Shown: piece after piece, positions 3,425-46,976 of the stretch
Numbering within the stretch: position 1 is the first letter of the stretch
Layout of the letters: every line of letters starts with the position of its first letter
DNA from: Shigella phage ESh33
Reading direction: 5' to 3' (one strand)
Sequence record: ON528743
DNA length: 64,000 nt
The notes under the pieces: generated by a model
Databases searched by the model: none
The model's input: only the letters and a program-made list of their open reading frames with translations
Told to the model about the DNA's origin: nothing
Made by a program: the position numbers and the translations under genes

Positions 3425-4708
3425 TTATTCATCAATAATAATTTTTGGTAATTTAACACCTAATAAAACAGACAAATCTGAACGACCCGCCATTTTATCC
3501 ATGTCTCCACCGTCAATTATTCTTGCTTCTTTTTCATCTTTTGCTACGGTATAAGGATTTGCTGATAAAGCATATCTAACTAATAAACCAATAGACGGTT
3601 GTAAGCTTTCTGGATCAACAACAACTTTAAATGCACCTACATGTTCAGGGTCATCTAAGTCGAGACCTTCTGTATACGGAGCATAGAAAATTGATCCAAC
3701 AATTTCTTTTTCACCGATATTTTCTACTACACCAACGATTACATAATCTAATGGGCTGTTAGTATCGCAATAAAGCGGTAAACCATTAGCTAAGAATCCA
3801 TAGGCATTTTGTGAAAGATATTTATCATCTTCTGGTTTATGTTTTAACCAACCTGATGCAGCAAGAATCGCAGCGGCACGAGCAGAAGCAACACAGAACG
3901 TTGCTGTATAAGTTGATTCTTTTTGGATATGCGAAACCATTTCACACACCATTCGGTATAATGAACGACCAGCTTCAGGTGCAGATGCATAACTCAAATC
4001 AATGAATCCAGTATCAGTAATTCCTGTAACTTTATAGCGTTTTGACACTGTAATCAAAGACTGCAGAATATCTTTATTGATTTCATCTGCCATTTCGGTT
4101 GCAAGCAAATCTTCCAAGAAATTAGGAGCATCGAATCCATTTGCTTCTAAATCTTGTGCTAATTCAACTGTAATGCCAGTTTTAAGTTTACGAGATTTAA
4201 CTGCGGTTTGCCATTTATTAATCTGGAATCTAGCATCCGCAATTTCACTATCAGAGCTTTCAAATTTGCTTGTTGATGCTGCATCAGAAAATAGACGAAC
4301 CTTTAAAAGAACGATTGCAATCTGAAGAGCTAACTCTAAGTCGCTTTCTTCAATATCAGCAAATGGTGTATCTTCTAATACTTTATAAACGATATTATTA
4401 TATTTGAATAAATCGCCTTTATTGAGAGTTAATTTAGACTCTTCTGTTAATTCTGTGATTTGTTCTCGGTCTACATATCCAGCTTCGCCAGCATAAGTAG
4501 CACCAGTTTTAAATGTAAATTCATTGTCTGGGTTAAGGTATTTGATACCATAAAAAGCAGCAACAGGTTGATTAGTTCTTTGCGTTGCTACAATGTCAGA
4601 ATATATTAATTTAGTGGTAGCGCGAGTCAAAGCAACGAGATTTGGGCGACCGATTGAGTTGCTATTCGTTGTGGTTGATTCGCGCAGAAGTTCGTTGATT
4701 TTAGCCAT
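3425..4708 (-). CDS. 24: head vertex protein gp24
   Basis: 427 aa, capsid-fold paralog of gp23; T4 position and length. Confidence 0.9.
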   Translation of the reverse strand: MAKINELLRESTTTNSNSIGRPNLVALTRATTKLIYSDIVATQRTNQPVAAFYGIKYLNPDNEFTFKTGATYAGEAGYVDREQITELTEESKLTLNKGDLFKYNNIVYKVLEDTPFADIEESDLELALQIAIVLLKVRLFSDAASTSKFESSDSEIADARFQINKWQTAVKSRKLKTGITVELAQDLEANGFDAPNFLEDLLATEMADEINKDILQSLITVSKRYKVTGITDTGFIDLSYASAPEAGRSLYRMVCEMVSHIQKESTYTATFCVASARAAAILAASGWLKHKPEDDKYLSQNAYGFLANGLPLYCDTNSPLDYVIVGVVENIGEKEIVGSIFYAPYTEGLDLDDPEHVGAFKVVVDPESLQPSIGLLVRYALSANPYTVAKDEKEARIIDGGDMDKMAGRSDLSVLLGVKLPKIIIDE

Positions 4709-17713: not shown

Positions 17714-19177
17714 TTATGCTGGTGATAAAAAGGTAGAAAGTAATACCCATTCGCCGTCTTTACGAACGTAAGCTTGGCCATCTTTTGGAGCTTCAGGAAT
17801 ATAACCTGCTTCTTGGAGAGCTTGAACATCACCTTGCAGAGAAGATATACTACCTTTAGCGGTATTCACTTCTTGTGTAACTGATGCAATGTTGGTTTCG
17901 TTAGCTTTTATTGAATTGGTTAATCCGCGTTCTTCGACAGTTGAACCATTTGGGTTAGTTCCATTTACTAAAGTATTTAACGCTACAACTTGCCCTTTAA
18001 TTCCTGTGCTGTTATTACCAATTTCTACCTGTAGGTTTTGAACATCGTTATTCAAGCCTGAAACAGAAGTTTCAATTGTAGAAACTCGGTTTAAAAGAGA
18101 CCCAGGAGGAGACGGTTGTCCACCGCTAGAATCAGTTCCAACAATTTGGTTTAACCACGAAACATTCGCTCTTAAACCGGATGAAGTGTTTTCACCCACA
18201 ATTCCGTTTAGAGCTTCGATTGAAGTTGTATTATCTTTGATTTGTCCTTTAATACTCGAAGGAATATCGTCTGAACCAATAGAAGTTTCAATAACGGTTA
18301 AACGCTGTTTAATACCTCCACTTTGATTTAGCTCTAAATTAATAGATGCAATATTATCAGTGTTTGTATTAACACTCGTGATAATCGAATTATTTCCCGG
18401 ATATCCTATTGAGGTCTTAATAACACTAATGTCAGACTCAACTGTTGTCTGTTTAGTGTCAATTTCATTTAAACGACTATAAACAGTTTGGGAAAATGAC
18501 GGCGGTTTCGGTCCAAGCTCTTCACGAAGATTGCCAACTTCAATAGTCAAAGAACCTACATCAGATTCAATAAATTTTGTTTCTAATTCGCTTAAACGTA
18601 TTCCCTGTGAAGTAATGACATCAGTATTATTAATAATGCGATGCTTCATTCCAGTGCTAGGATTTCCTACAACAGGAAGACCATTAATATCTTGACCTGT
18701 ATATTGACCTAATTCACGTTTAATCCAAAGTAAATCATTTCTGATCGTTCTATATACAGAGTTGGCCTCAGAGTTAAATGGACCAATATCAGCAAGAATG
18801 CTGTCAACCGTACTATTAGTTCCATTTAATATTTCTGTATGTTCACTGGTTAGCGTTTTAAGGTCAGAAATATCCTTTTTATTGATACTTATTTGAGCCA
18901 AAGCTTCAATATCACCAGATACATCTAAGATGCCCTGGATGGTTTTAATATCACTATTTGCGGTTTCTAAAGATGTTTTAAGTATTCCAATGTTTTTATC
19001 AAGAACTTCAACATTTCTTAGTACAGAAACTGTAGGTCTATTCATTGAACCTTCGCTTCCATACTGTGTGTCAGCTCCTAATATTTCTTCGCCGTTTTTA
19101 ATCCAGGAAATGCGGCTCTGGCCCTCCGCAGGAGGGCCGTCAACGAATGGTAAGTCATTCAGTACAATATCTGTCAT
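17714..19177 (-). CDS. wac: fibritin (whisker protein)
   Basis: 487 aa, long coiled-coil; T4 position between 12 and 13. Confidence 0.9.
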
Positions 19178-36646: not shown

Positions 36647-37343
<697 letters not shown>

Positions 37344-37356
37344 TTTCACAAAGTTG

Positions 37357-37393
37357 TTTACATGCTGATGAGGTAGTGATACTATTACCTCAT
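37357..37393 (+). promoter_or_regulatory. sigma70-like early promoter for ipI with palindrome flanking the -10
   Basis: TTTACA-17-TACTAT with TG extension; inverted repeat GATGAGGTA/TACCTCATC around the -10. Confidence 0.6.
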
Positions 37394-37416
37394 CAAAATT
37401 AATTAGGAAAAATAAA

Positions 37417-37701
37417 ATGAAAACTTATCAAGAATTCACTTCAACGACTAGCGCTTCTACTTTGACTGAAGCGACCCTTACTTCTGAAGTTATTAAAGCA
37501 AACAAAGGACGTGAAGGTAAACCGATGATTAGCCTGGTTGATGGCGAAGAAGTCAAAGGTACTGTTTACCTGGGTGATGGATGGTCCGCTAAGAAAGATG
37601 GTGCTACAATCGTTATCTCCCCTGCTGAAGAAACTGCTTTGTTTAAAGCCAAGCATATTTCAGTAGCTCAGCTTAAAATTATTGCAAAAAATCTTCTATA
37701 A
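37417..37701 (+). CDS. ipI: internal protein I (capsid-targeted, predicted gp21-processed)
   Basis: 94 aa; N-terminal capsid targeting sequence MKTYQEF with L-T-E cleavage motif, leaving a ~76-aa mature protein; next to 57B as in T4. Confidence 0.8.
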   Translation: MKTYQEFTSTTSASTLTEATLTSEVIKANKGREGKPMISLVDGEEVKGTVYLGDGWSAKKDGATIVISPAEETALFKAKHISVAQLKIIAKNLL

Positions 37702-38633: not shown

Positions 38634-39149
38634 ATGAATATTTGTTTAGGTACTACAATTCCACAGGGTTACGTAATTGATGTCACTACCTGGGAAAATG
38701 ATGGTGACAACTATAAAACTAAAACACTGTTTGGCGTAGAAGAGCATGAAATCTTACAATTCCAATATCTTTTAAAGAAGTTTAAAAGCAGACATTCTAG
38801 TACTAAAGCTGAACGTTATTGTGGTAATGGCTTGTTCAGCGAGCAATCGCTTTTTATTTATGAATACTTGGTTGAAGGACTGTTCTCAGAACAACTTTAT
38901 CCAGAATTCATTAAAAAGGTCTTTGACATAGAAGTTGACCTTGGTAATAAATCCGAAGAAGACGAAGAACGTGTATTTGACTTATTCTTTGTGAATGGTA
39001 ATAAAGTGCTTGAAGGACTTATTAATATTTTAGGTAATGCTTCTGAGTATTATGATTATGATTTTTTGCGTGTAGTTGAGAGTGTTAAATACTCTTATAT
39101 AGAAGAAGAAATTGTTTTGCCGACCGTTAAGATGTTTAATTTGCTTTAA
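38634..39149 (+). CDS. hypothetical protein (171 aa)
   Basis: ATG 38634 after GGTGG; track start 38625 is GTG. Confidence 0.55.
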   Translation: MNICLGTTIPQGYVIDVTTWENDGDNYKTKTLFGVEEHEILQFQYLLKKFKSRHSSTKAERYCGNGLFSEQSLFIYEYLVEGLFSEQLYPEFIKKVFDIEVDLGNKSEEDEERVFDLFFVNGNKVLEGLINILGNASEYYDYDFLRVVESVKYSYIEEEIVLPTVKMFNLL

Positions 39150-39235
39150 GAATTATTTGTTATTATTAACTCATACCGCACTGATTAATACCCTCTATCA
39201 TCAAGGGTTCTTATTTGAGAGCCTTTGTTAATAAT

Positions 39236-39308
39236 TGGGAATTAGCCAAGTTGGTAAGGCACTGGATTTTGATTCCAGGATGCAAAGGTTCGAGTCCTTT
39301 ATTCCCAG
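39236..39308 (+). tRNA. tRNA-Gln (anticodon UUG), no encoded CCA
   Basis: Cloverleaf by hand: acceptor TGGGAAT/ATTCCCA, anticodon loop TTTTGAT, T-arm GGTTCGAGTCC. Confidence 0.8.
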
Positions 39309-39309
39309 C

Positions 39310-39396
39310 GCGAGAATGGTCAAATTGGTAAAGGCACAGCACTTAAAATGCTGCGGAATGATTTCCTTGTGGGTTCGAGTCCCACTTCTCGCACCA
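39310..39396 (+). tRNA. tRNA-Leu (anticodon UAA), long variable arm, CCA encoded
   Basis: Acceptor GCGAGAA/TTCTCGC, anticodon loop CTTAAAA, T-arm GGGTTCGAGTCCC. Confidence 0.8.
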
Positions 39397-39401
39397 AATT
39401 T

Positions 39402-39475
<74 letters not shown>

Positions 39476-39485
39476 ATTTAATTTA

Positions 39486-39559
39486 CTCCGTGTAGCTCAG
39501 TTTGGTAGAGCGCCTGATTTGGGATCAGGAGGTCCAAGGTTCAAATCCTTGTATGGAGA
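39486..39559 (+). tRNA. tRNA-Pro (anticodon UGG), no encoded CCA
   Basis: Acceptor CTCCGTG/TATGGAG with G-U pairs, anticodon loop TTTGGGA, T-arm GGTTCAAATCC. Confidence 0.75.
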
Positions 39560-39561
39560 CT

Positions 39562-39651
39562 GGAGGCGTGGCAGAGTGGTTTAATGCACCGGTCTTGAAA
39601 ACCGGCAGTCGCTCCGGCGACTCATAGGTTCAAATCCTATCGCCTCCGCCA
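39562..39651 (+). tRNA. tRNA-Ser (anticodon UGA), long variable arm
   Basis: Acceptor GGAGGCG/CGCCTCC, anticodon loop CTTGAAA, T-arm GGTTCAAATCC, CCA encoded. Confidence 0.8.
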
Positions 39652-39656
39652 GTTTT

Positions 39657-39732
39657 GCTGATTTAGCTCAATAGGTAGAGCAACTCACTTGTAATGAGAA
39701 GGTCGGCGGTTCGATTCCGTCAATCAGCACCA
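39657..39732 (+). tRNA. tRNA-Thr (anticodon UGU)
   Basis: Acceptor GCTGATT/AATCAGC, anticodon loop CTTGTAA, T-arm GGTTCGATTCC, CCA encoded. Confidence 0.75.
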
Positions 39733-39733
39733 A

Positions 39734-39808
39734 GGCCCTGTAGCTGGAAGGTTCAAGCAAGCGACTCATAATCGCCAGATGGTGGTTCAATTCCACCCAG
39801 GGCCACCA
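39734..39808 (+). tRNA. tRNA with anticodon CAU (Ile2 if lysidine-modified, otherwise Met)
   Basis: Acceptor GGCCCTG/CAGGGCC, anticodon loop CTCATAA, T-arm GGTTCAATTCC, CCA encoded. Confidence 0.7.
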
Positions 39809-39814
39809 AATTAA

Positions 39815-39901
39815 GGGGAGTTATCCCGTAGAGGTAGCGGTGTGGACTGTAAATCCATTGTCATTGCGACTCGGGTGGTTCGACTCCATCACTCCCCACC
39901 A
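39815..39901 (+). tRNA. tRNA-Tyr (anticodon GUA), long variable arm
   Basis: Acceptor GGGGAGT/ACTCCCC, anticodon loop CTGTAAA, T-arm GGTTCGACTCC, CCA encoded; not among the eight T4 tRNAs as I recall them. Confidence 0.7.
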
Positions 39902-39905
39902 ATTT

Positions 39906-39980
39906 GGATGTGTAGCTCAATGGCAGAGCGATCGCCTGTTAAGCGATTGGTTATAGGTTCGAATCCTATCACGTCCGCCA
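39906..39980 (+). tRNA. tRNA-Asn (anticodon GUU)
   Basis: Acceptor GGATGTG/CACGTCC, anticodon loop CTGTTAA, T-arm GGTTCGAATCC, CCA encoded. Confidence 0.7.
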
Positions 39981-40094
39981 AATTTGTGACAACTGTCACA
40001 TTAATATCTACTTGACGCGATTATAGGGGTTGAACTGATCACTCTTCTCTTAATTTCGTGTGAAGACATCATGATTGTTGGAGTAGATATTAAT
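39981..40094 (+). ncRNA. 114-nt structured spacer inside the tRNA array; candidate small stable RNA or processing element
   Basis: No ORF; long-range inverted repeat CATTAATATCTAC (39998-40010) / GTAGATATTAATG (40083-40095) and local palindrome GTGACAACTGTCAC. Confidence 0.3.
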
Positions 40095-40170
40095 GTGGCC
40101 GTAGTTCAGTTGGTAGAACTCGAGATTGTGATTCTCGTAGTCATGGGTTCGACTCCCATCGGTCACCCCA
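40095..40170 (+). tRNA. tRNA-His (anticodon GUG); position -1 is T, so no encoded G-1
   Basis: Acceptor GTGGCCG/CGGTCAC, anticodon loop TTGTGAT, T-arm GGGTTCGACTCCC, CCA encoded. Confidence 0.7.
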
Positions 40171-40174
40171 ATTA

Positions 40175-40250
40175 CGGGGCATAGCTCAGAAGGAAGAGCA
40201 AGGACCTTCTAAGTCCTAGGTCGTAGGTTCGATCCCTACTGCCTCGACCA
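40175..40250 (+). tRNA. tRNA-Arg (anticodon UCU)
   Basis: Acceptor CGGGGCA/TGCCTCG, anticodon loop CTTCTAA, T-arm GGTTCGATCCC, CCA encoded. Confidence 0.75.
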
Positions 40251-40268
40251 ATTATAAGTGAGGAAAAT

Positions 40269-40619
40269 ATGAAAGGTAATGTTTATTTAGTAGTTCATGA
40301 TTTAACATTCTATTTTAATCATAATGATACTGCTATTTCTGAACGTGTAATTAATTTACTTTATCAGCATGCAGATTATGTTTATGTTGAAAATGAATTT
40401 GGCCATTGGCAATTTCTCAAAAATCGTTCATTTGGTTTAGATGGTTACGAATACTTTGATCGTAAAGACCTTTTAGATACAATTCCATTATCTACACAAT
40501 ATCAAAATCATAAGTCTTTACATAAATGCCGGCTAATTCGAAATGCTGAATCTGCGTATGAAGCAATTGATTTATGGCGTAAACGCCGTGAACAGATTGA
40601 TGCTTTAAAAGAATATTAA
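40269..40619 (+). CDS. hypothetical protein (116 aa)
   Basis: ORF with RBS GAGGAAAA directly after tRNA-Arg. Confidence 0.6.
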   Translation: MKGNVYLVVHDLTFYFNHNDTAISERVINLLYQHADYVYVENEFGHWQFLKNRSFGLDGYEYFDRKDLLDTIPLSTQYQNHKSLHKCRLIRNAESAYEAIDLWRKRREQIDALKEY

Positions 40620-40960
40620 GAAACCGGGTCGCTACCGGTAAGTCGTCGGACTGATGTTCCCTGTTTAAGGACTGGCATTAATAAATCTTTATGTTTTGTT
40701 AATGTCCCCTTATATCACAGCAGAAACGGCGCACCGAATTATCGATTCGAGGAAATATCTTTGCCGTAAGCCGAGTAGCGTTTTTGACGGAACGTTCGGA
40801 TATGGTCGAGATATGGCCTTTTAAAAATATTGAGTAGCGTCAACTGCTTGATAACCGGGTTCGAATCCCGGCGTTTCGTACAAACACTTGCCTTAGCAGG
40901 TGGAACCCCGACAAGGTTGCCGCAAGGCTTAGCCCCAGCCGAAAGGTTGGGGCTTTTTAG
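40620..40960 (+). ncRNA. ORF-free structured region; candidate small stable RNA(s) ending in an intrinsic terminator
   Basis: ~340 nt without ORF; tRNA-like T-arm CCGGGTTCGAATCCCGG at 40854-40870; repeated GAGTAGCGT; terminator 40932-40958. Confidence 0.35.
40932..40958 (+). terminator. intrinsic terminator closing the tRNA / small RNA region
   Basis: GCCCCAGCC-GAAA-GGTTGGGGC then TTTTT. Confidence 0.7.
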
Positions 40961-40968
40961 TATAAATA
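40961..40968 (+). promoter_or_regulatory. late promoter for the IP-like gene at 41005
   Basis: TATAAATA just after terminator 40932-40958, ~37 nt upstream of ATG. Confidence 0.6.
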
Positions 40969-41004
40969 AGTATATTAAATCTACAAATTAAAACAGGAAA
41001 TAAG

Positions 41005-41478
41005 ATGAAATCATATACTCAATTTTTAAATGAAGCGGTGTTAAATGAAGCGTCTAGCACCGAAATTCAAGCTGTCGCAAAAGCAGCCATTGCAGCGGGT
41101 AAATATTCCTATAAAGATGCTTCTGATGAATCACGATTCCAATTTGCTCGCGACATGAAAGCAGAAGGATTTACGGGGAATGCTGTTAGTATGGCCTGGA
41201 AAAGTTTAGTTGCTACTGGCGCTGCTTTTGCAAAGGCTTCAGGTAAACCTGCTCCTAAAGCAGATCCTAAAGTCACACAAGAGAAAAATATCGTTAAAGG
41301 AATTATCTCCAAATATGAAGCTATCCTTAAAGAGCTTTTAGTAATCAAAACTGAAGGCCAAAAGCTAGCTCGTGCTTATAGTTTCAAAGATAACCCACAT
41401 GTTCACTCTCTTGAGTATGTTGAAGACATCCAAAAAATTATTAAAGACCGCATTTGGTCTGCTAAACAAATCAAATAA
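41005..41478 (+). CDS. predicted capsid-targeted internal protein (novel IP-like)
   Basis: 157 aa; N-terminus MKSYTQFLNE-A resembles the CTS of ipI/ipII/ipIII with L-N-E cleavage motif; basic Lys/Ala-rich body; late promoter TATAAATA at 40961-40968; terminator at 41487-41514. Confidence 0.6.
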   Translation: MKSYTQFLNEAVLNEASSTEIQAVAKAAIAAGKYSYKDASDESRFQFARDMKAEGFTGNAVSMAWKSLVATGAAFAKASGKPAPKADPKVTQEKNIVKGIISKYEAILKELLVIKTEGQKLARAYSFKDNPHVHSLEYVEDIQKIIKDRIWSAKQIK

Positions 41479-41486
41479 CATTCTTA

Positions 41487-41514
41487 GCCCTAGCCAAAAG
41501 GTTGGGGCTTTTTG
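41487..41514 (+). terminator. intrinsic terminator after the IP-like gene
   Basis: GCCCTAGCC-AAAA-GGTTGGGGC then TTTTTG; near-duplicate of the 40932 hairpin. Confidence 0.7.
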
Positions 41515-41647
41515 ATATCTAGGCCTTTCCAGGCCTCTCTAGACATCGTTTAGTTTCTACCCTTTATAATATATTATCCTATCCTTTGATTTCCCCTCCC
41601 TGCCCTAGAATTCCCCAAAACTTTTTAAAAATTTTTTCACAAAACTG

Positions 41648-41676
41648 TTTACATCCTTGTCCTTCCATGGTACTAT
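41648..41676 (+). promoter_or_regulatory. sigma70-like early promoter
   Basis: TTTACA-17-TACTAT with TGG extension; A/T-rich upstream element. Confidence 0.6.
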
Positions 41677-41719
41677 ACAACTATCAACTACTGATACAGA
41701 AAACAACTTGGAGAATGAA

Positions 41720-41983
41720 ATGGATAATTACGGTGAGCTGTTCAACTTCTTTATGAAATGTGTTTCAGAAGATTTCGGTCGTACAGTGAATGATATTAAA
41801 GTTATCGGTCCTGACCATCCGATGTTTGAAACCTATGCAGTAATGGGTAATGAAGATGGTCAGTGGTATACTGTAAAGGTTGTGATTAATATGTTCACTG
41901 CTGAAGGTTATGTTAAACTGTCTTCTAAAGTTTACCATGATAACGATGAAATCGCAGAAGAATATTTCAATAATATGAAATAA
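41720..41983 (+). CDS. hypothetical protein (87 aa)
   Basis: ATG 41720 with RBS GGAGAA downstream of early promoter 41648-41676; track start lies in the promoter. Confidence 0.55.
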   Translation: MDNYGELFNFFMKCVSEDFGRTVNDIKVIGPDHPMFETYAVMGNEDGQWYTVKVVINMFTAEGYVKLSSKVYHDNDEIAEEYFNNMK

Positions 41984-41986
41984 TTG

Positions 41987-42015
41987 TGTACAAACACCAA
42001 GGACGGTGTTATTAT
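41987..42015 (+). promoter_or_regulatory. possible promoter for ORF 42052
   Basis: TGTACA-17-TATTAT with TG extension. Confidence 0.35.
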
Positions 42016-46168: not shown

Positions 46169-46486
46169 ATGAAAACGTATAAAGAATTTATTGCAGAATC
46201 TGCCGCAGGACAACGTGTAGAAGGCGGTTATATCTGGATTGAACAAGTTGAGCCGCCAAGTCGCACTTCTACAGGTAAATGGAAAATCACTGTTGATGGT
46301 CCTGGCGGTAAACGTAGGACTCTTAAAGAAATTAACGGGTACTATGAAGAAGCTCTTTCTGACGCGGGTACTTATATGATGCAAATCATGATTAAAAACC
46401 CAGAAAATCGTTTTGCGGCTAGAGTTTTCCGCCGTATTGGAAATAAGCTTTATGATGCATATTCTAAAAACTTCCCTAAAGAATAA
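46169..46486 (+). CDS. internal protein (ipII-like), capsid-targeted
   Basis: 105 aa; CTS MKTYKEFIAE-S with I-A-E cleavage motif; basic. Confidence 0.75.
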   Translation: MKTYKEFIAESAAGQRVEGGYIWIEQVEPPSRTSTGKWKITVDGPGGKRRTLKEINGYYEEALSDAGTYMMQIMIKNPENRFAARVFRRIGNKLYDAYSKNFPKE

Positions 46487-46502: not shown

Positions 46503-46976
46503 ATGAAAACATATCAAGAATTTATTACTGAAGCAGCTATTAATTCTCAAATTATTGCTGAATCTTTTACTGATCTTTTGAAATTTAAAAAAGGTCAAAA
46601 AATCACTGCTGTATTGGATGATGGTACAGAAGTTGAGATGGATGTACAAGGATATAATTATGCAGTAGATGGAAAACTGTATAATAAATCTCATGCTAAA
46701 TTTGATTCATTTGACGACTTTGTTAATGCAGTTGAAGATGAAAAAACTCGTCGATCCATTGCAACTGGTGATGCTAAGGTTCTTATGGCACATGGTCATG
46801 AACGCATTCGCGCTAAACAGAATAAAATGGGTGAAGATAATTTTGCATTAGTTGGTTATCAATCTGGTAAACAAACTTATGGTTATCAGCGTACTGCTAC
46901 CATGTATAACAAAAATGGTAAAATCGCTTTCGTGAATAGTAAAGGTTCTGTTCAGTACGTCAAATCATTCAAATAA
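46503..46976 (+). CDS. internal protein (ipIII-like), capsid-targeted
   Basis: 157 aa; CTS MKTYQEFITE-A; leader DNA nearly identical to the ipII-like leader. Confidence 0.75.
   Translation: MKTYQEFITEAAINSQIIAESFTDLLKFKKGQKITAVLDDGTEVEMDVQGYNYAVDGKLYNKSHAKFDSFDDFVNAVEDEKTRRSIATGDAKVLMAHGHERIRAKQNKMGEDNFALVGYQSGKQTYGYQRTATMYNKNGKIAFVNSKGSVQYVKSFK

What the first reader, a model, noticed from the sequence alone, without database searches (positions are those of the whole stretch)
40961..41514. Extra capsid-targeted internal-protein-like gene with its own late promoter and terminator
ORF 41005-41478 begins MKSYTQFLNE-A, resembling the capsid targeting sequence of the three internal-protein genes in this window (MKTYQEF...) and containing the L-x-E prohead-protease cleavage motif. 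The body is basic and Lys/Ala-rich, as expected for a DNA-associated protein injected with the genome. The gene is an insulated unit: terminator at 40932, TATAAATA at 40961, terminator at 41487. T4 has three internal proteins by my recollection, so this looks like a fourth, lineage-specific one; internal proteins such as IPI* are known anti-restriction effectors.
Basis: partly seen in the sequence, partly recalled or inferred. Interest (0 to 1): 0.65.

Follow-up and report, generated by a model that had tools for sequence, protein, structure and literature searches.

The report
Unannotated candidate internal head protein gene
A small late gene next to the tRNA cluster of this T4-like phage carries the N-terminal "address label" that T4 uses to load proteins into its head for injection, so it is probably a further, so far unnamed, injected internal protein; it is widespread in T4 relatives but missing from T2, T4 and T6.

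Summary
ORF 41005-41478 (157 aa, pI 9.5, Ala/Lys-rich) lies between two strong terminators, behind an exact TATAAATA late promoter and an AGGAA ribosome-binding site. It is a real gene: dN/dS is 0.03-0.35 and over 500 phage records carry a homologue. Nearly every record calls it "hypothetical" (PHROG 2280, unknown function).

Its N-terminus, MKSYTQFLNE, keeps all four residues that matter in the T4 capsid targeting sequence: Y4 and F7 for targeting, L8 and E10 for cleavage. Relatives only 26-40% identical keep the same motif. The late promoter and the position after the tRNA/rnaC unit are conserved in Mosigvirus, Jiaodavirus and a Cronobacter phage.

The gene is therefore not lineage-specific. 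T2, T4 and T6 lack exactly the 555 bp between the two 36-nt terminator repeats, which looks like a deletion.

The mature part has a confident three-helix, HTH-like domain, a Pro/Ala/Lys linker and a helical hairpin. It matches no known Ip family.

I found no virion proteomics, so packaging, cleavage and any anti-restriction role remain inferred.

Verdict: a likely new member of the known, polymorphic Ip class, at a third locus. Moderate interest.

The parts
40928..40963 (+). Terminator repeat, copy 1. Stem-loop 40931-40954 plus a T5 run. It ends the tRNA/rnaC transcription unit.
   Evidence: -20.6 kcal/mol. In T2, T4 and T6 its left flank is joined directly to the right flank of copy 2.
40961..40968 (+). 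T4-type late promoter TATAAATA, 37 nt before the ATG.
   Evidence: The same element lies in the same place in Jiaodavirus phiKp_22 and Cronobacter phage VP8. Mosigvirus (AATAAATA) and a metagenome contig (GATAAATA) have 7-of-8 variants. T4 has no such element at the empty site.
40995..40999 (+). Ribosome-binding site AGGAA, 5 nt before the ATG.
   Evidence: read directly from the sequence.
41005..41478 (+). Coding sequence of the 157-aa precursor (PHROG 2280; RB32ORF132c/133c type).
   Evidence: dN/dS is 0.03 against GiZh, 0.10 against Mosigvirus and 0.35 against Jiaodavirus.
41005..41049 (+). Predicted propeptide, CTS-like: MKSYTQFLNE|AVLNE|A. It has two L-N-E sites, after E10 and after E15.
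   Evidence: Y4, F7, L8 and E10 match the T4 CTS determinants (PMC9026906). The motif is conserved in homologues. AF2 pLDDT is below 50 for residues 4-15.
41026..41055 (+). 15-bp tandem duplication (TTAAATGAAGCGGTG / TTAAATGAAGCGTCT) that doubles the LNEA site.
   Evidence: repeat D2. Homologues P0004 and P0005 have a single site.
41050..41244 (+). Conserved N-terminal three-helix domain of the mature protein (residues 16-80).
41230..41265 (+). Pro/Ala/Lys-rich basic linker (residues 76-87, KASGKPAPKADPK).
   Evidence: Distant homologues have longer P/A/K tracts at the same place.
41266..41466 (+). C-terminal helical hairpin (helices 88-124 and 131-154).
   Evidence: Only generic hairpin matches were found. 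Two alternative C-terminal types exist within the family.
41483..41518 (+). Terminator repeat, copy 2. Stem-loop 41486-41509 plus a T5 run. It ends the gene.
   Evidence: -17.5 kcal/mol.

Best explanation
The gene encodes the precursor of an additional internal head protein, at a third Ip locus just downstream of the tRNA/rnaC unit.

Proposed mechanism:
1. The gene is transcribed late from its own TATAAATA promoter and ends at its own terminator.
2. The first 10-15 residues act as a capsid targeting sequence that carries the protein into the prohead scaffolding core.
3. The gp21 prohead protease cuts after E10 and/or E15 (L-N-E|A).
4. This leaves a basic mature protein of about 15.5 kDa (A16-K157, pI about 9.6). 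It consists of an HTH-like three-helix domain, a P/A/K linker and a helical hairpin.
5. The mature protein stays with the packaged DNA and enters the host with it. By analogy with Ip1-3, it most likely blunts a host defence or protects the incoming DNA.

The gene is dispensable. T2, T4 and T6 lost it by recombination between the two terminator repeats.

What is shown: the gene, its signals, conservation of the CTS-like motif, synteny and the deletion junction.

What is inferred: packaging, cleavage, injection and function.
For: - **Targeting and processing residues:** Y4 and F7 (targeting) and L8 and E10 (processing) match those mapped for the IPIII CTS (PMC9026906).
- **Family-wide motif:** homologues start MKTYNEFLNE, MKTYNEFLMTE-A, MKSYAEFLTE, MKFKEFLAE-A, MLKFNEFLAE-G, MINFSDFLNE-G, MKSFSSFLNE-G and MISFNEFVDGNLITE-S, although they are only 26-49% identical overall. 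M1 and F7 are invariant and L8 nearly so.
- **Motif specificity:**
- **Conserved late promoter and position:** kept across genera.
- **A neighbouring CTS gene:** in Cronobacter phage VP8, a second small CTS-bearing ORF (MKSFTEFLTE-S) sits between the same late promoter and the homologue. The site therefore behaves as an Ip locus.
- **Composition:** basic and rich in Ala and Lys.
- **Accessory behaviour:** absent from T2, T4 and T6, and frameshifted or truncated in some phages.
- **Precedent:** Ips share only the CTS and are otherwise unrelated (PMC3012670; PMC12373910).
- **One independent annotation:** one depositor named a Klebsiella phage homologue "Internal head protein".
Against: - I found no virion mass spectrometry, N-terminal sequencing or genetics for any member.
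- The window copy shares only 5 of 10 identities with MKTYQEFIAE. A strict PSSM separates it poorly from background.
- The canonical Ips have a nearly invariant MKT[YF][QK]EF, while this family is looser.
- It lies outside the two Ip loci recognised in the literature (PMC12373910).
- It is under strong purifying selection and is syntenic across genera, unlike the highly polymorphic Ip loci.
- The fold gives no functional link.
Confidence: 0.6

Rival explanations
1. A late-expressed cytoplasmic DNA-binding protein that is not packaged, for example one acting on replicating or packaging DNA, or on late gene expression. The CTS-like N-terminus would then be an ancestral or coincidental amphipathic start with no targeting role.
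For: - The linker is basic and rich in P, A and K.
- Purifying selection and conserved synteny are more typical of a housekeeping accessory gene than of an arms-race Ip.
- The match to the canonical CTS is only moderate.
- T4 gene 61.1 shows that a CTS-like start can occur on a protein not known to be packaged.
Against: - Exactly the four functional CTS positions, plus an x-E|A/G/S site, are conserved in relatives as low as 26% identical. The residues between them vary.
- The motif hits almost only Ips in about 200 kb of T-even DNA.
- A second CTS ORF sits at the same locus in VP8.
Confidence: 0.17
2. A prohead-core accessory protein. It would be targeted into the prohead by its CTS but act in assembly as a scaffold-like component. 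It would then be degraded or expelled at maturation rather than injected.
For: - The CTS evidence is the same as for the best explanation.
- An internal L-K-E site (residues 108-110) could allow further cleavage (sequence).
- The long helical hairpin resembles coiled-coil scaffold elements.
Against: - The gene is dispensable: T2, T4 and T6 build normal heads without it.
- The N-terminal domain is a compact, well-folded unit (pLDDT 93).
- Known small CTS proteins stay in the head.
Confidence: 0.12
3. A non-functional or decaying remnant, kept only because it lies between two terminators.
For: Frameshifted or truncated copies exist in a few phages, and the gene is lost in T2, T4 and T6.
Against: - dN/dS is 0.03-0.10 within the coliphage genera, with 15 synonymous against 2 non-synonymous changes relative to GiZh.
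- The frame is intact in 467 of 511 matching records at 80% coverage or more.
- The promoter, ribosome-binding site and terminator are all conserved.
Confidence: 0.02

Closest known systems
T4 internal proteins IPI, IPII and IPIII, and the polymorphic Ip4-Ip10 of other T-even phages (Repoila et al. 1994, as cited in PMC3012670 and PMC12373910)
   Same: - A small, basic, dispensable protein.
- An N-terminal M-K-S/T-Y/F-x-x-F-L/I-x-E leader followed by A, G or S.
- Presence or absence varies among close relatives.
- No sequence similarity to other Ips beyond the leader, which is also true among the known Ips.
   Different: - It lies at a third site, after rnaC and before e.8, not at the ipI locus or the ipII/ipIII locus.
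- It has its own dedicated late promoter and terminator.
- The leader is looser than the near-invariant MKT[YF][QK]EF, and this lineage has a duplicated cleavage site.
- It is conserved and syntenic across genera rather than swapped.
- Packaging has not been shown.
IPI* (and Ip2, Ip3) as injected inhibitors of GmrSD-type Type IV restriction enzymes (PMC12373910); Bas37_0260 as a McrBC inhibitor (bioRxiv 10.1101/2025.11.20.689424)
   Same: The predicted delivery route is the same, and the mature protein is small, so a counter-defence role is plausible.
   Different: - IPI* is reported as a compact fold with two beta sheets flanked by helices (PMC3012670). This protein is predicted to be all-helical, with an HTH-like domain and a hairpin.
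- No target is known, and the family is not among the ip4-10 tested by Silas et al..
Other gp21-processed T4 head proteins with short N-terminal propeptides (gp24, Alt), reviewed in PMC9026906 and PMC5694885
   Same: An x-E cleavage motif near the N-terminus. Extra cleavage sites within a propeptide are thought to help clear the fragments (PMC5694885).
   Different: Those proteins are shell or enzyme components that have homologues in T4. This protein has none.
Mobile regulatory cassettes flanking genes in hyperplastic regions of T4-type genomes (PeSL elements; Arbiol et al. 2010). Recalled from memory and not checked here.
   Same: The gene is bracketed by a repeated regulatory stem-loop, and recombination between the copies can delete or move it.
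   Different: Here the repeat is a terminator joined to a late promoter, not an early promoter with a stem-loop. Only two copies occur in the window.

Membership tests
T4-type internal (Ip) proteins | N-terminal capsid targeting sequence: an aromatic residue at position 4 and Phe at position 7 (the targeting determinants) | tested here: met
   The window protein has Y4 and F7. Position 4 is Y or F and F7 is invariant across the aligned family. The determinants are as summarised in PMC9026906.
T4-type internal (Ip) proteins | gp21 cleavage motif (L/I-x-E, then a small residue) at the end of the leader | tested here: met
   L8-N9-E10|A11 and L13-N14-E15|A16. Homologues keep L-x-E followed by A, G, S or Q. 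Only the motif was tested, not the cleavage.
T4-type internal (Ip) proteins | Actual proteolytic processing by the prohead protease | not testable with these tools
   This needs mass spectrometry or N-terminal sequencing of virion protein. I found no published data.
T4-type internal (Ip) proteins | Presence inside the mature head and injection with the DNA | not testable with these tools
   I found no virion proteome covering this family.
T4-type internal (Ip) proteins | A small, basic, non-essential protein whose presence varies between close relatives | tested here: met
   157 aa with pI 9.46. Absent from T2, T4 and T6. Truncated in some phages.
T4-type internal (Ip) proteins | Encoded in one of the two recognised Ip loci (next to 57B, or next to denV/e) | tested here: not met
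   The gene lies between rnaC and e.8. This is a positional habit of the family, not a mechanistic requirement.
GmrSD / Type IV restriction inhibitors (IPI*-like) | Sequence or fold similarity to a characterised inhibitor, or demonstrated inhibition | tested here: not met
   - No BLASTP similarity beyond the leader.
- No PDB sequence hit.
- Fold searches return only generic helical matches.
- Inhibition itself cannot be tested here.
Helix-turn-helix / winged-helix DNA-binding domains | Three-helix core superposable on HTH domains with a significant score | tested here: inconclusive

The most novel reading that the evidence does not exclude
PHROG 2280 may be the founding family of a third, previously unrecognised internal-protein locus of the Tevenvirinae. 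It would be a conserved, injected, HTH-like DNA-binding protein that counters a host defence other than the GmrSD subtypes handled by Ip1-3. It would have escaped seventy years of T-even work because T2, T4 and T6 all lost it through recombination between two terminator copies.
Probability: 0.3. Interest if true: 0.6.

Novelty: new member of a known kind. Interest (0 to 1): 0.42.

Why it matters
All three T4 internal proteins are now known to be injected inhibitors of distinct Type IV restriction enzymes. A further Ip, from phage Bas37, blocks McrBC (PMC12373910; bioRxiv 10.1101/2025.11.20.689424).

A conserved extra candidate, present in hundreds of therapeutic-type coliphages, Shigella, Yersinia and Klebsiella phages but absent from the model phages, is a ready-made target for finding another defence/counter-defence pair. 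It could also help explain host-range differences between T4 and its wild relatives.

The finding also shows that Ip genes are not confined to the two known loci. And it gives a clean example of gene loss through recombination between duplicated terminators.

Tried and rejected
- **Family databases:** Pfam, NCBIfam and the PDB sequence search gave nothing. PHROGs gave only family 2280, of unknown function.
- **Fold search of the N-terminal domain alone:** weak RecX and GntR-type hits. I kept these only as a hint.
- **BLASTP against T4 IPI, IPII and IPIII and GiZh IpIV, IpV and IpVI:** no alignment to this ORF, not even over the leader.
- **Strict PSSM from canonical CTSs:** poor separation. 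I replaced it with a similarity-matrix score and a test of the four functional positions.
- **Rfam scan of 39000-42000:** only tRNAs; there is no family for rnaC or rnaD.
- **Literature searches** for RB32ORF132c, fHe-Yen9-01 and virion proteomes of Tequatrovirus, Mosigvirus and Jiaodavirus found no data on this protein.
- **Papers not held in the library:** Repoila 1994, Bair 2007 and Rifat 2008. I therefore could not check the sequences of Ip8-Ip10 directly. The claim that this family is none of them rests on its position outside the loci those authors studied and on its absence from T2, T4 and T6.
- **"Lineage-specific insertion"** was considered and rejected on the outgroup synteny.

Full report
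**Context.** The window comes from a Tequatrovirus. Region 40800-41700 is 99.2% identical to Shigella phage SHBML-50-1. The window's + strand corresponds to the T4 minus strand. The local gene order is:
- 57B;
- an IPI homologue (37417-37701, 90% identical to T4 IPI);
- the trna.x ORFs;
- eleven tRNAs (39236-40250);
- a 116-aa ORF;
- rnaD and rnaC;
- the ORF in question;
- e.8, e.6, e.5 and the following e-region ORFs, then nudE, e and denV;
- two more CTS-bearing genes (46169-46486 and 46503-46976, the latter being IpIV).

**The observation.**
- ORF 41005-41478 encodes 157 aa starting MKSYTQFLNEAVLNEA.
- It follows AGGAA at the right spacing and an exact TATAAATA at 40961-40968.
- It lies between two strong intrinsic terminators, at 40931-40954 and 41486-41509, with 10-bp stems, U5 tails and energies of -20.6 and -17.5 kcal/mol.
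- The protein has pI 9.46, with 24 Ala and 21 Lys.

Two details are new.
- The two terminators are copies of one 36-nt direct repeat, 555 nt apart.
- The double LNEA site comes from a perfect 15-bp tandem duplication at 41026-41055.

**A real gene.**
- tblastn finds a homologue in 511 phage records, 467 of them at 80% coverage or more.
- Against GiZh there are 15 synonymous and 2 non-synonymous differences (dN/dS 0.03). Against a Mosigvirus copy dN/dS is 0.10, and against a Jiaodavirus copy it is 0.35.
- All members fall in PHROG 2280, "unknown function". There is no Pfam, NCBIfam or PDB sequence match.
- Among about 130 named cluster members every one is "hypothetical". The single exception is a UniRef entry for Klebsiella phage KPKp, called "Internal head protein".
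- The otherwise carefully annotated GiZh genome leaves the gene unannotated.

**The leader.** The review PMC9026906 summarises Mullaney and Black (1996). In the 10-residue IPIII capsid targeting sequence MKTYQEFIAE, targeting depends mainly on residues 4 and 7, and processing on residues 8 and 10. The window protein has Y4, F7, L8 and E10.
- As a single sequence this is a moderate match, with 5 of 10 identities. BLASTP does not report it, and a strict PSSM built from the near-invariant canonical leaders gives it only a small margin.
- With a similarity matrix it scores 30. It ranks directly after the three known Ips among 471 candidate starts. The background is -1.7 +/- 7.6 and the next best score is 20.
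- The four-position motif M..[YF]..F[ILV].E hits only this ORF and the two Ips with a 10-residue CTS in the window.
- In 1,477 starts from all T-even DNA held, the motif hits only annotated Ips, this family, one extra CTS ORF in L005, and T4 61.1.

The family gives the stronger argument. Members that are only 26-49% identical overall start MKTYNEFLNE, MKTYNEFLMTE-A, MKSYAEFLTE-Q, MLEYSEFLKE, MKFKEFLAE-A, MLKFNEFLAE-G, MINFSDFLNE-G, MKSFSSFLNE-G and MISFNEFVDGNLITE-S. M1 and F7 are invariant, L8 is nearly so, and position 4 is always Y or F. AlphaFold leaves residues 4-15 at pLDDT below 50, as expected for a detachable propeptide.

**Expression signals and synteny.** The homologue sits directly after the tRNA/rnaC-like unit and before the e.8-type early promoter in four other genomes:
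- Mosigvirus WFbE185;
- Jiaodavirus phiKp_22;
- Cronobacter phage VP8;
- a metagenomic contig.

Each has a terminator followed within a few bases by TATAAATA (phiKp_22, VP8) or a 7-of-8 variant (AATAAATA, GATAAATA). In those read in detail (the window, phiKp_22 and the metagenome contig) this element starts 36-44 nt before the ATG. In VP8 a second small ORF with a leader (MKSFTEFLTE-S, 72 aa) sits between the late promoter and the homologue. The site therefore behaves like an Ip locus.

By contrast, the window's ipI homologue follows an early-type promoter. The two Ip genes after denV have no promoter of their own.

**Not lineage-specific.** The syntenic regions of T4, T2 and T6 contain no homologue. 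They carry a single terminator. Its left flank equals the flank of copy 1 in the window, and its right flank (GGTATCTAGGCCTTTCCAG...) equals the flank of copy 2. That is exactly the product of recombination between the two repeats.

Mosigvirus has the same duplicated terminator around the gene. More distant genera have the gene at the same site. Presence is therefore the older state, and the three classical T-even phages carry a deletion. This plausibly explains why the protein has never been studied. Frameshifted or truncated copies in a few phages confirm that the gene is dispensable.

**The mature protein.** The full model has mean pLDDT 75. It shows a three-helix domain (residues 18-75), a Pro/Ala/Lys linker (76-87) and a helical hairpin (88-154).
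- Modelled alone, the N-terminal domain reaches pLDDT 93.
- Full-length fold searches return only the protein's own relatives or generic hairpins.

This fits a DNA-associated protein but proves nothing. IPI* is described as a compact fold with two beta sheets flanked by helices (PMC3012670), so there is no structural link to it.

**Comparison with what is known.**
- The Ips of T-even phages are a diverse set sharing only the CTS (PMC3012670). At least ten have been reported, encoded in two loci (PMC12373910).
- Ip1, Ip2 and Ip3 each inhibit a distinct GmrSD-type enzyme. Ip4-10 were tested without a hit.
- Bas37_0260, an Ip at the ipI locus of phage Bas37, blocks McrBC.

The present family lies outside both loci, is absent from T2, T4 and T6, and is not annotated as an Ip. 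I file it as a probable new member of a known kind. The membership features that can be read from sequence are met. Those that define the biology (packaging, cleavage, injection) cannot be tested here, and I found no published proteomics.

**Verdict.**
- The "capsid-targeted internal protein" reading is the best-supported explanation, at about 0.6.
- The "lineage-specific" part is wrong.
- The anti-restriction role is an analogy only.
- Interest is moderate: a specialist would not be surprised by one more Ip. However, a conserved, widespread candidate at a third locus, missing from the model phages, is a concrete and cheap experimental lead.

Noticed in passing
L009 (T4 NC_000866) 18966-19130, minus strand: T4 gene 61.1 (54 aa, annotated "hypothetical") starts MKTFKEFIKE. 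That is a near-perfect capsid targeting sequence with an I-K-E site. It is either an unrecognised packaged protein in T4 itself or the one false positive of the CTS motif.
   Followed up: no
window 46169-46486 (+): A 105-aa ORF between denV and IpIV has a perfect leader, MKTYKEFIAE-S. Its family, PHROG 3966, is labelled "unknown function", and GiZh lacks the gene at this place. It is likely another under-annotated Ip.
   Followed up: partly
L005 (Cronobacter phage vB_Cdu_VP8, OQ361773.1) 3786-4004 (+): A 72-aa ORF (MKSFTEFLTE-S ADLTLTE-A ...) with no PHROG match sits between the late promoter and the PHROG 2280 homologue. This gives two tandem CTS genes at this locus.
   Followed up: partly
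window 41026-41055 (+): A perfect 15-bp tandem duplication creates a second LNEA cleavage motif. Tequatrovirus relatives occur both with and without it, and the Mosigvirus copy has a single site.
   Followed up: yes
window 40928-40963 and 41483-41518; L002, L007, L008: T2, T4 and T6 carry one hybrid terminator exactly where the window has two repeat copies flanking the gene. This is a clean deletion junction produced by recombination between the repeats.
   Followed up: yes
window 39236-40250 and 40269-40619 (+): The tRNA array has 11 genes, including Tyr, Asn, His and a CAU-anticodon tRNA, against 8 in T4. A 116-aa ORF follows tRNA-Arg, and there is no segB between the tRNAs as there is in T4.
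   Followed up: no
window 37340-37416 (+): The IPI homologue is preceded by an early-type promoter (GTTTACA, 17 nt, TACTAT) and no TATAAATA. The candidate at 41005, by contrast, has only a late promoter.
   Followed up: no
phage records vB_EcoM-G28, 235Ecol030PP, SfPhi01, KpV477: Homologues are split or truncated (97, 111 and 78 aa, or tblastn matches in two pieces). This suggests repeated pseudogenisation of the gene in some lineages.
   Followed up: no
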